A stretch of DNA of 63,698 nt, the filler included, from Collodictyon triciliatum (taxonomy: Eukaryota), in NCBI GenBank assembly GCA_043381765.1. It is 6 parts of 6 records of this genome, joined end to end, with 100 filler letters (N's around TTAATTAATTAA, not from the genome) between each part and the next. Parts side by side here need not be neighbours in the genome. Positions count along the whole stretch, not along the records: positions 1 to 12,338 come from JBHJMP010002196.1; 5 more parts are not named here. One strand, given 5' to 3'. A model generated the notes under the pieces. The model was not told the DNA's origin. It did no database searches and saw nothing but the letters and a program-made list of their open reading frames with translations. A program made the position numbers and the translations under genes. Positions 2,509 through 4,039 of this stretch are shown here, one piece after another; the first letter of the stretch is position 1; the number at the start of each line of letters is the position of its first letter.

Positions 2509-2561
2509 AGCAGGAGGAGCGGCGCATAGAAAGAGGAAGAGGAAGAGGAAGAGGAGCGGGA

Positions 2562-4039
2562 ATGTCGTACATGACGCACGTGCCTGCGGGGGCGGGCGGG
2601 GATGGGCAGTGGGGGCCGGAGGAGGCGGAGGCGGTGCGTGCGCTTGCGGAGCGGCTGAGCCGGGCGGGGGAGGTGCACAAGGTGGTGGGGCGGCTGTGGA
2701 TCTTCGAGGAGGACCTGTGGCTGGGGATGCTGCAGACGGGGCCCGTGCCGGCGAGCAGCCAGGTGGCGGTGGTGGCGGACCAGGCGTGCGTGGTGGTGCC
2801 TGTGCTGGCGGCGGTGGGGGCGGCGGGGGTCGGGGCGGCGGGGGCGGCCGAGGCGGCGGCGGGGCGGGTCTTTGAGGCGCTGACGCGGCAGGTGGGGCTG
2901 GCGTGGCAGCAGTGCGCGGCCGAGGCAGGCGGCGGGGGCAACATGGGCGCCCACGTCCCCGCCACCGCCACCAGCCTCAGCGACGAGGGCGTCGAGGGCC
3001 GCGCGCGGGGGCTGCTGCTGCTGCTCAAGACGCTGCATCTGCACCGGCTGCTGCGCCGCTTCGCCGCCCCGGACCCGCTGCTGCAGCTGCACCGCGCCAC
3101 GCCGCCGCACACGCCGCTCGTGCGCCTGGTCCGCATGCTCGGCCGCCTGCAGCAGATCTTTGTGCAGACGTCGCGCCAGCCCGACATCCTGCTGCTGTGG
3201 CGCCGCGGCCTCCTGCTGCGCCCCCCGCACCCGCCCCACGACCGCCTGCTCTTCCTGCGCCAGTGCCTGCTCGACGTCCCCGAGGACGAGGCCGACCTCT
3301 TTGCCCTCCTCGCCGCGCTCCTCCACACCCCCGACGACGCCCTCCTCGCCCTCCAGCACCTCCTCGCTCACGCCCACGACTACCACATCCAGCTCCTCGC
3401 CCTCCTCCTCCGCAAGCCCCCCGACGTCATCCTCGACGCCTTCCACCTCGCACACTCCCTCGCCACACCCGCAGCCACAGCCACACCCGCAGCCACAAGC
3501 GCAATGCCTCCATCCCCTGCATTCTCCGCCTCCGCATCTGCATTGTCCACAGCCACACCGGCCCGGCCGTCAGACTCCTCCTCACTGTACGTCCTTTGTC
3601 CGTCCATGCTACCATTTTGGCCTGTCCACACGTCGCAGCATTGCTTTCCATGAATGCTGTATTCAATATATATGTATGCAAAACAAAAAAAAAAAAAAAC
3701 AACCAGAATGATAATAATGTAAATTCGAACCCCCTGCTCCTCGTCACAACTTCCCCTTTCTCCAGCAGAGGCCTCCACGACGTCCGCCTCACCATCATCC
3801 GGCAGCCGCCCAAGGAGACCATCAAGGACAAGATTCTCAACCCCATTCCTGGAATCCGCGTCGACGGCCTCTCAGAGGACGATGATGCTCCTTATGTCAT
3901 CCGCGCATATGTTGTTCGCTTCGGCGAGCTGGATGAGGTTGAGGACGGCCTCCATGGCTGCGTCCTGCACCAGGTCTCTGTGCCTTTGTCCATTCGGAGC
4001 AAAAATCTACCTCAAATCATCTCACCTTTTTTTTTCTTT

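What the first reader, a model, noticed from the sequence alone, without database searches (positions are those of the whole stretch)
2510..3600. GC island whose synonymous codons flip from G-ending to C-ending mid-exon
Seen: in an AT-rich genome, 2510-2940 is strongly G-rich (GCG, GTG, GGG, CGG, CTG) and about 2950-3600 of the same exon is C-rich (GCC, GTC, CGC, CTC, CCC). The flanks follow suit: A-rich repeats on the left (2270-2510) and T-rich tracts on the right (4026-4090, 4530-4610). Amino-acid composition is dragged along (A/G/V, then L/P/H). Inference: a skew mirrored about a point is not explained by one-directional transcription. It suggests a bidirectional process centred there, such as a fixed replication origin or a double-strand-break hotspot with GC-biased conversion. 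The left arm has G4-capable runs.
Basis: partly seen in the sequence, partly recalled or inferred. Interest (0 to 1): 0.75.

Follow-up and report, generated by a model that had tools for sequence, protein, structure and literature searches.

The report
Mirror-skewed GC islands inside protist genes
Two 0.8-kb GC-rich islands inside genes of an AT-rich protist genome switch from G-ending to C-ending codons at their centres, which fits the scar of a recurrent DNA break-and-repair site better than a replication origin.

Summary
Exon 1 (2562-3586, +) of a spliced transcription-factor gene has GC3 of about 0.95. At fourfold sites it goes from 94% G to 32% G, and to about 2% G in the last third. In 2000 permutations, none reached the observed change-point score. 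A second island, the acyltransferase ORF 37525-38829 (+), shows the same polarity more weakly. None of 8 other long ORFs in the window shows it.

The islands are genuine. Transcript-derived proteins of Diphylleia rotans align colinearly across the flip. An independent metagenome contig bridges it. There is no inverted repeat.

Amino acids are dragged in the left arm only: L>V seven times, net +18 G at codon positions 1-2.

The polarity (G then C, 5' to 3') is opposite to replication origins and to fungal gene skews. It matches what resected 3' tails at double-strand breaks should accumulate. My best reading, at about 40%, is a long-lived break/repair hotspot centred in each island. A transcription-linked process is the main rival.

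The evidence rests on two loci, with no genome and no polymorphism data.

The parts
2562..3586 (+). Island 1: exon 1 of a spliced gene (N-terminal helical domain of a diphyllatean Rel/EBF-like + IPT/TIG factor). GC3 is at least 0.9 from 2651 to 3428.
   Evidence: ATG and GT donor read; codon tables; GC3 zone; homologues align colinearly over 2586-3461
2562..2921 (+). Left arm: G-ending codons (third positions G96 C18 A0 T6; fourfold G72 C6 A0 T4).
2922..3281 (+). Mixed zone holding the flip (third positions G53 C64). Logistic midpoint is 3070-3120. The midpoint of the GC3 plateau is 3040.
3282..3586 (+). Right arm: C-ending codons (G11 C69 A16 T5).
2588..2844 (+). Span holding two canonical G4 motifs on the coding strand (2588-2615, 2816-2844).
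2397..2561 (+). Upstream (AACCAA)n microsatellite (2397-2509), then a purine-only leader of GAGGAA repeats (2510-2561; G26 C5 A20 T1).
3587..3765 (+). Intron 1 (GT..AG). GC is only 0.41, but C exceeds G (skew -0.34).
3766..3973 (+). Exon 2. GC3 falls from 0.86 to 0.62 and is still C-ending (G14 C37).
4115..4307 (+). Exon 3 (Rel/EBF-like DNA-binding part). Boundaries were read from the sequence and from the alignment to P0137.
4635..4918 (+). Exon 4, the IPT/TIG domain and the stop codon. It is covered by a contig of run X4, which is guessed to be RNA (4654-4990).
3974..4634 (+). Span from intron 2 to intron 3, enclosing exon 3. Introns 2 (3974-4114) and 3 (4308-4634) hold (CTTT)n-type tracts at 4026-4090 and 4530-4610. 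Intron GC skew is -0.71 and -0.58.
37525..38829 (+). Island 2: single-exon ORF of a PlsC-type acyltransferase (PF01553). GC3 is at least 0.9 from 37776 to 38532. The G-to-C flip is at 38158-38259.
37290..37440 (+). A-rich tract upstream of island 2 (A133 T0), just right of an assembly gap at 37190-37289.
38358..38484 (-). Two G4 motifs on the minus strand, in island 2's right arm.

Best explanation
Each island marks a long-lived site of recurrent DNA double-strand breakage and homologous repair, centred in the mixed zone (about 3050 and about 38200).

After a break, 5'->3' resection leaves the + strand single-stranded on the left and the - strand single-stranded on the right. Damage to exposed C and A is then bypassed by translesion synthesis, giving C>G and A>G on the tail strand. 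This turns the tail strand towards G. GC-biased repair of heteroduplex keeps the whole tract GC-rich. Over many generations this gives a GC3 peak of about 0.8 kb that is G-rich on its left and C-rich on its right. Non-synonymous sites are pulled along where selection allows.

Shown here: the composition, its significance, its restriction to the two islands, the coincidence of the flip with the GC3 peak, the derived C>G-type replacements in the left arm, and the authenticity of the sequence.

Inferred: that breaks occur here at all, that they are meiotic, and the repair chemistry. The chemistry is borrowed from human hotspot data.
For: 1. Sign of the flip. G on the left and C on the right is the sign expected if the resected 3' tail loses C and A. 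PMC7615360 states that the ssDNA lies left of the break on the forward strand. It also reports that the flanking 2 kb shows C>N and A>N asymmetry, with off-centre C>G and A>G peaks attributed to deamination plus TLS.
2. Position of the flip. It coincides with the centre of the GC3 peak in both islands: 3070-3120 against 3040, and 38158-38259 against 38154. Both plateaus are about 770 nt wide.
3. Direction of change. In the left arm, 26 residues differ from a state shared by two separate relative lineages. Minimum-path changes at codon positions 1-2 are C>G 11.5, T>G 5 and A>G 4.5, a net +18 G and -5.5 C. L>V occurs seven times. This is mutation pressure towards G on one strand, not symmetric GC gain.
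4. Non-coding sequence. The skew extends into introns right of the centre (-0.34, -0.71, -0.58).
5. Restriction to the islands. None of 8 other ORFs shows any G/C positional trend.
6. Indel variation at the centre. An independent metagenome contig spans 2895-3042 with no substitutions but two in-frame indels, at 2928 and 2958.
7. Precedent. Reversed GC skew about Spo11 hotspot centres is reported in yeast (PMC8276760).
Against: - Intron 1 lies between an exon end with GC3 0.70 and an exon start with GC3 0.86, yet it has only 41% GC. A purely regional process should enrich it too.
- In the right arm, non-synonymous changes show no G>C excess (G>C 2, C>G 3). Its C-type amino acids are ancestral, because relatives have the same skew. 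So the mirror is complete only at synonymous sites.
- The secondary T-over-A (left) and A-over-T (right) pattern holds in exon 1 (p=0.0016) but reverses in exon 2. It is absent in island 2.
- Both flips lie at similar distances from the ATG (508-558 nt and 633 nt). A transcription-linked process would also give this.
- The upstream flanks are C-rich or A-rich, not G-rich.
- Hotspot skews described in mammals and yeast are small. Values near +/-0.9 require very stable hotspots.
- There are no data on recombination, sex or polymorphism for this organism, and only two loci.
Confidence: 0.4

Rival explanations
1. Transcription-linked strand-asymmetric mutation or repair. The 5' part of a strongly or specially transcribed gene forms R-loops or G4 structures that expose the non-template strand, which loses C and becomes G-rich. 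A different regime acts further downstream (elongating or terminating polymerase, or antisense transcription from the first intron or the 3' end). That regime makes the coding strand C-rich.
For: - Both islands start at or just after the ATG, and the flips are 508-633 nt downstream of it.
- The left arms carry G-runs and G4 motifs on the non-template strand.
- Intragenic sign changes of GC skew are documented in unicellular fungi. They reach fourfold sites, change amino-acid usage and extend into UTRs (PMC3315797: abstract and sections 5 and 10).
- The intron is not GC-enriched, so the signal is mostly exonic.
Against: - The sign is opposite to the fungal pattern, which is C at the 5' end and G at the 3' end.
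- None of 8 other ORFs in the window shows a trend, so this is not a general property of genes here.
- No described transcription process gives GC3 near 0.97 together with a skew of -0.9 on the non-template strand.
- Whether antisense transcription occurs was not tested; only one laid run was guessed to be RNA, and its contigs cannot show strand.
Confidence: 0.25
2. Replication-linked asymmetry. The island is either a fixed origin, or a fixed fork-convergence or fork-barrier site.
For: A sign change of skew is the classical mark of origins and termini (PMC2817419). G-then-C is the terminus-type sign. GC-rich, G4-prone DNA could stall forks (my inference).
Against: - Origins go from negative to positive skew on the 5'->3' strand, which is the opposite of what is seen here.
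- The arms are 0.4-1 kb, not replicon-sized. The 1-kb composition profile shows no replicon-scale V or inverted-V centred on the islands.
- Replication asymmetry does not raise GC3 to 0.97.
- The magnitude is far above any replication skew described in the passages read.
Confidence: 0.07
3. Selection on the product: codon or tRNA preference, mRNA structure (a G-rich 5' half pairing with a C-rich 3' half), or protein composition.
For: High GC is seen in exons and not in intron 1. The right arm's C-type residues (L, P, H, Q) are ancestral to the family.
Against: - Translational selection cannot prefer GCG, GTG and CTG in one half of an exon and GCC, GTC and CTC in the other half (box table).
- There is no inverted repeat or arm-to-arm complementarity beyond composition.
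- Introns right of the centre share the C excess.
- Seven conservative L>V replacements at otherwise shared positions look like mutation pressure.
Confidence: 0.07
4. Foreign DNA or an assembly or amplification chimera: an inverted join, or a bacterial insert.
For: - The best relatives of island 2's protein are bacterial PlsC at about 45% identity over a third of its length.
- An assembly gap lies 235 nt upstream of that ORF.
- Single-cell MDA assemblies of this protist group are known to suffer inverted chimeras (bioRxiv 10.64898/2026.06.11.730069, passages).
Against: - Island 1 aligns colinearly to transcript-derived Diphylleia proteins across the flip and on through exons 2-4.
- A 151-nt contig from an unrelated metagenome run bridges 2895-3042.
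- No inverted repeats were found.
- No gap lies within 8 kb of island 1.
- GC3 rises and falls gradually at the edges of the islands.
- Island 2 is one uninterrupted ORF, with the Pfam domain spanning the G-rich part.
Confidence: 0.03

Closest known systems
Compositional skew reversal and strand-asymmetric mutagenesis at meiotic DSB hotspots. Human: PMC7615360, section 4 and legends read. Yeast Spo11 hotspots: PMC8276760, passages read. Mouse: Smagulova et al. 2011, recalled only, not held.
   Same: The skew changes sign at a centre. The arms are about 1-2 kb. The tail strand loses C and A and gains G, which is the sign seen here. Indels concentrate at the centre.
   Different: Those effects are averages over thousands of hotspots and are small. 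Here single loci are close to saturation: 94% G falling to about 2% G at fourfold sites. They lie inside coding exons, in a CRuMs protist, and no break map exists.
Local GC runaway by biased gene conversion, as in the gerbil Pdx1/ParaHox region (PMC6573468 and PMC7403616; only the search-listing abstracts were seen).
   Same: A kilobase-scale region reaches extreme GC3, and conserved proteins are altered by the pressure.
   Different: In those abstracts 'GC skew' means GC enrichment. No strand switch of G against C is described in what I saw.
[quoted passage not shown]
   Same: The GC skew changes sign within genes. It reaches fourfold sites, shifts amino-acid usage and extends beyond the coding region.
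   Different: The sign is opposite (C at the 5' end, G at the 3' end). The fungal pattern is weak, genome-wide and not tied to GC islands. Here it is confined to 2 of 10 ORFs tested.
Replication-origin skew jumps and bidirectional asymmetries at human CpG islands (PMC2817419, passages read).
   Same: A centred, bidirectional switch of strand asymmetry at a GC-rich island.
   Different: The polarity is opposite. That effect spans hundreds of kb and amounts to a few per cent. The background here is not CpG-depleted (o/e 0.87, against about 1.0 in the islands).
5'-to-3' GC3 gradients of grass genes (recalled; for PMC5460877 only the listing abstract was seen).
   Same: GC3 is very high at the 5' end of genes and decays downstream, while introns stay much poorer in GC.
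   Different: This comparison rests on recall and on one listing abstract. I saw no report of a G-to-C strand flip there. Grass gradients are genome-wide.

Membership tests
DSB-hotspot compositional footprint | Local GC peak of about 1-2 kb | tested here: met
   GC3 is at least 0.9 over 2651-3428 and over 37776-38532, in a window of 38.7% GC.
DSB-hotspot compositional footprint | The skew changes sign at the peak centre, with G on the strand that ends 3' at the centre | tested here: met
   Flips at 3070-3120 and 38158-38259, against plateau midpoints of 3040 and 38154.
DSB-hotspot compositional footprint | The tail strand is also depleted of A relative to T | tested here: inconclusive
   Holds in exon 1 (T6/A0 against T5/A16, p=0.0016). 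It reverses in exon 2 and is absent in island 2.
DSB-hotspot compositional footprint | Non-coding DNA inside the tract shares the GC enrichment | tested here: not met
   Intron 1 has GC 0.41, although it keeps the excess of C over G.
DSB-hotspot compositional footprint | Measured excess of breaks, recombination or W>S transmission | not testable with these tools
   No genome is held and there are no population or break-mapping data.
Replication origin | GC skew goes from negative to positive along the 5'->3' strand | tested here: not met
   Observed +0.4 to +0.5 falling to -0.5 to -0.6. The rule is taken from PMC2817419.
Vertebrate-type CpG island | CpG is spared in the island against a CpG-depleted genome | tested here: not met
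   CpG o/e is 0.78-1.09 in the islands and 0.87 in the rest of the window.
Fungal-type intragenic GC skew (transcription-phase) | The coding strand is C-biased at the 5' end and G-biased at the 3' end | tested here: not met
   The sign is opposite in both islands.
Fungal-type intragenic GC skew (transcription-phase) | Present across many genes of the genome | tested here: not met
   None of 8 other long ORFs in the window shows a positional trend. The whole genome could not be tested.
IPT/TIG transcription factors of the Rel/NFAT/EBF type (gene carrying island 1) | C-terminal IPT/TIG domain preceded by a beta-sandwich DNA-binding domain | tested here: inconclusive
   TIG is found by Pfam (E 2.7e-4 in the window; 6e-5 and 1e-7 in relatives). 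The PDB profile hit is to COE1/COE3 TIG at E 1e-5. A model of relative P0137 (pLDDT 71.6) hits EBF1, NFAT and NF-kB at E about 1e-8, but TM-scores are only 0.24-0.33.
PlsC/LPAAT acyltransferases (gene carrying island 2) | PF01553 domain above its cut-off | tested here: met
   98.3 bits against a cut-off of 23, residues 138-253.

The most novel reading that the evidence does not exclude
The islands are fossil footprints of fixed, very long-lived break sites inside genes. Conversion of any base to G on the resected 3' tails, rather than classical strand-symmetric gBGC, would drive both the GC enrichment and the strand switch. If so, hotspot centres could be read from a bare genome sequence at roughly 100-bp resolution in this deep-branching lineage. 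The same rule (G on the strand that ends 3' at the break) could also explain the fungal pattern of C at gene starts and G at gene ends, as the shadow of intergenic hotspots. That last link is my own inference.
Probability: 0.3. Interest if true: 0.8.

Novelty: new variant of a known kind. Interest (0 to 1): 0.6.

Why it matters
Base-composition islands are usually credited to GC-biased gene conversion, which treats G and C alike. Here a single locus shows near-complete G on one side and near-complete C on the other, with derived C>G-type amino-acid replacements. This points to a strand-specific step: single-stranded tails, or the non-template strand.

If break-centred, the pattern would give a sequence-only way to locate recombination initiation sites. 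It would also date their stability in a lineage (CRuMs) close to the root of Amorphea, where no genetics exists. And it would show break-repair mutagenesis reshaping proteins.

If transcription-centred, it would be a new and extreme form of the intragenic skews known from fungi, with the opposite sign.

Either way, gene finders and codon-usage models tuned to this AT-rich genome will mis-handle such exons.

Tried and rejected
**Data that could not be obtained**
- Earlier notes of this scan: nothing by place, sequence or words.
- Sequencing runs: no run holds more than 0.13 of the sampled words. After laying four runs, most depth over 2568-3101 and 3369-3635 came from short, low-identity matches to GCG/GGC and GCCACA repeats of other organisms, and was ignored. 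Parts without cover say nothing.
- DNA of relatives: two scans of metagenome contigs (alignment A1, then P0138) gave no confirmed locus. I could not test whether orthologous exons carry the flip.

**Island 2**
- No orthologue was found with its N-terminal 125 residues.
- Polarising against 120 distant, mostly bacterial homologues gave 53 disagreements in 119 consensus columns. These were too remote to assign a direction, so I dropped this analysis.

**Other checks**
- Inverted duplication or palindrome as the cause of the mirror: no arm-to-arm match beyond 20-25 nt. The islands are not copies of each other; only a GCCACA repeat matches.
- Divergent-gene reading. The - strand ORF 2393-3367 shares its third positions with the + frame. 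Its translation is low-complexity, while the + frame has 7 relatives, so I rejected it.
- CpG-island reading: rejected on CpG o/e.
- Rfam and tRNA scans of the window: nothing.
- Atlas look-up of ORF 52489-53853: best score 0.78, not usable.

**Literature**
- Smagulova 2011 and Pratto 2014 are not held. The mouse skew is cited from memory and through PMC8276760.
- I found no paper describing a within-exon G3-to-C3 flip in GC islands in searches. Supplements were not consulted.

Full report
**What is there**

The window is eukaryotic, 38.7% GC, rich in microsatellites and short introns. Only two stretches exceed 0.65 GC in 300-nt windows: 2500-3600 and 37800-38800.

The first is exon 1 of a spliced + strand gene. 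I read the ATG at 2562 and a GTACGT donor at 3587. The remaining exons are 3766-3973, 4115-4307 and 4635-4918.

The model is supported from outside. The exon-1 protein has 7 relatives among 1.84 billion representatives. The four best relatives (P0136, P0137, P0138, P0139) were looked up. Three are transcript-derived proteins of Diphylleia rotans and one comes from a metagenome. By tblastn they align colinearly from 2586 to 4906. Exon 4 is an IPT/TIG domain.

A model of relative P0137 (pLDDT 71.6) has a helical N-domain followed by two beta-sandwich domains. These domains hit EBF1, NFAT and NF-kB at E about 1e-8 but with low TM-scores.

A malic-enzyme exon in the window is also closest to D. 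rotans, at 68% identity. The organism is therefore probably a diphyllatean (CRuMs) flagellate.

The second island is a single ORF, 37525-38829, encoding a PlsC-type acyltransferase (PF01553, 98 bits). Its nearest relatives are bacterial, at about 45% identity over a third of its length.

**The observation**

Third codon positions in exon 1:

| Segment | G | C | A | T |
|---|---|---|---|---|
| 2562-2921 | 96 | 18 | 0 | 6 |
| 2922-3281 | 53 | 64 | 1 | 2 |
| 3282-3586 | 11 | 69 | 16 | 5 |

At fourfold sites the left arm is G72 C6 A0 T4, and codons 240-320 are G1 C40. The codon-box table shows the same amino acids switching codon. Ala goes from 24 GCG: 2 GCC to 1: 15. Leu CTN goes from 8 CTG: 0 CTC to 0: 18.

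A change-point statistic on 215 fourfold G/C sites was reached by none of 2000 permutations. The same held when shuffling only within codon boxes.

Island 2 shows the same polarity more weakly: G fraction 0.79 falling to 0.40 at 38259, 0 of 2000 permutations. Third positions go from G111 C73 to G49 C95, p=3e-6.

I ran the same test on 8 other long ORFs, 3 on + and 5 on -. None shows a trend. These are stop-to-stop ORFs, not verified genes.

The flip is gradual. A mixed zone of about 360 nt separates the arms.

But they are microsatellites, and the left one is C-rich rather than G-rich.

**Is it an artefact?**

- No gap lies within 8 kb of island 1. A gap lies 235 nt upstream of island 2's ATG.
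- There is no inverted repeat between the arms, and the islands are not copies of each other.
- The protein alignment runs through the flip without a break.
- A 151-nt contig from an unrelated run labelled as a freshwater metagenome spans 2895-3042. It has no substitutions and two in-frame indels: 3 nt out at 2928 and 6 nt in after 2958.
- Other contigs of that run match 7063-7458 exactly, so the species is in that run.
- Run X4, which is guessed to be RNA, gives spliced contigs for the - strand malic-enzyme gene and covers exon 4.

**Amino acids**

I compared the window with its relatives over the same alignment columns. The left arm's excess of G over C at codon positions 1-2 is +0.31 per residue. 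It is +0.15 and +0.04 in the two closest relatives, and -0.28 and -0.21 in the two more distant ones.

I then used a stricter rule: the ancestral state had to be shared by one of P0136/P0138 and by one of P0137/P0139. Under that rule 26 left-arm residues are derived in the window. L>V occurs seven times, and Q>E, P>A and Q>G also occur. The minimum-path changes are C>G 11.5, T>G 5 and A>G 4.5, a net +18 G and -5.5 C.

The window also carries an Ala/Gly-rich insertion there.

In the middle and right arms there is no such strand bias (net G +3, C 0 to +1). The C-type residues of the right arm are already present in all relatives.

**Reading the polarity**

A pattern that is G-rich and then C-rich along one strand reads the same 5'->3' on the other strand. 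A process tied to the gene and a process centred on the island therefore predict the same + strand polarity for genes on either strand. What carries information is the sign.

- Origins go from negative to positive skew (PMC2817419). This is the opposite of what is seen here.
- Fungal genes go from C at the 5' end to G at the 3' end (PMC3315797). This is also the opposite.
- At human recombination hotspots, resection leaves the forward strand single-stranded left of the break. The flanking 2 kb shows strand-asymmetric C>N and A>N changes, with off-centre C>G and A>G peaks ascribed to deamination and translesion synthesis (PMC7615360). Repeated over time, that makes the left arm G-rich and the right arm C-rich, as observed.
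- Yeast Spo11 hotspots are reported to show reversed GC skew about their centre (PMC8276760). The text does not give the sign.

**Fit and misfit of the break model**

Points that fit:
- The flip coincides with the centre of the GC3 plateau in both islands, within about 100 nt.
- Both plateaus are about 770 nt wide.
- The C excess continues through the introns to about 1.6 kb right of the centre.
- The dominant inferred replacement class in the left arm is C>G.
- The only variation seen in an independent allele is indels at the centre.

Points that do not fit:
- Intron 1 is only 41% GC, inside a zone where flanking GC3 is 0.70-0.86.
- The right arm lacks a G>C excess at non-synonymous sites.
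- The A/T asymmetry is inconsistent.
- The flips are also at similar distances from the ATG, 508-633 nt. With two loci, "centre of the island" and "fixed distance into the gene" cannot be told apart.

CpG is not depleted in the background (0.87), so these are not CpG islands in the vertebrate sense.

**Verdict**

The break hotspot has the right sign and shape and a published precedent, but it is untested here. I give it 0.40. I give 0.25 to a transcription-linked process, 0.07 each to replication termination and to selection on the product, and 0.03 to artefact or foreign DNA. The rest stays unassigned.

I rate it a new variant of a known kind. Skew reversal at hotspots and GC runaway are both known. 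A near-saturated G3-to-C3 switch within single exons of a CRuMs protist did not turn up in any of my searches.

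Noticed in passing
window 12339-12438, 24765-24864, 37190-37289, 49615-49714, 62039-62138: Five assembly gaps have the same built form: 44 N, TTAATTAATTAA (a stop in all six frames), 44 N. They are joins made by a pipeline, not sized gaps. Other gaps (15128-15660, 24229-24304, 43360-43508) are plain N runs.
   Followed up: partly
window 2562-4918 (+) and proteins P0136-P0139, P0144: The gene carrying island 1 belongs to a small family: 7 hits in 1.84 billion representatives. 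Of the four best hits, three are from Diphylleia rotans and one from a metagenome; the other three were not looked up. The family has a conserved helical N-domain (motif RLWIFEED), a Rel/EBF-like beta-sandwich and an IPT/TIG domain. It may be a lineage-specific transcription-factor family.
   Followed up: partly
window 52384-53856 (+) and 55837-57285 (+): Two neighbouring long ORFs of about 480 aa with no Pfam match share a motif (RMRIN...TPLRVCA). They look like tandem paralogues of an unknown family. The Atlas gave only weak leads (best 0.78, one of them STAT-like).
   Followed up: partly
window 2928 and 2958: An environmental allele (a contig of run X1) differs from the window only by a 3-nt deletion and a 6-nt CCGCCA insertion. 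Both are in frame and lie right at the flip point of island 1.
   Followed up: partly
window 20352-22427 (-): A 691-aa ORF is rich in Ser, Gln and Pro, with long SQPQ/PQ repeats. It makes the + strand strongly G-skewed (+0.46) at only about 50% GC. This is a skew caused by a repeat-coded protein, not by an island.
   Followed up: no
window 7000-9500 (-): A malic-enzyme gene with at least seven short exons. GT..AG introns of 69-278 nt are confirmed by spliced contigs of run X4, which is guessed to be RNA.
   Followed up: partly
window 39400-49300 (+): A myosin heavy-chain gene (motor motifs, an IQ motif at 46220-46280) is split into many small exons. Its introns hold long (AAT)n, poly-T and (CAAA)n-type repeats.
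   Followed up: no
window 36950-37189 and 37290-37440: About 240 nt of (ATGT)n and then, across a gap, about 150 nt of poly-A/(CAAAA)n lie directly upstream of island 2. Island 1 is likewise preceded by (AACCAA)n. Both islands thus sit just downstream of long A-rich simple repeats.
   Followed up: no
window 37860-37920 and 38640-38700: Inside island 2's ORF, CACAGC and CACAC(G) repeats encode His-Ser and His-Thr/His-Ala runs. These are absent from the Pfam domain.
   Followed up: no
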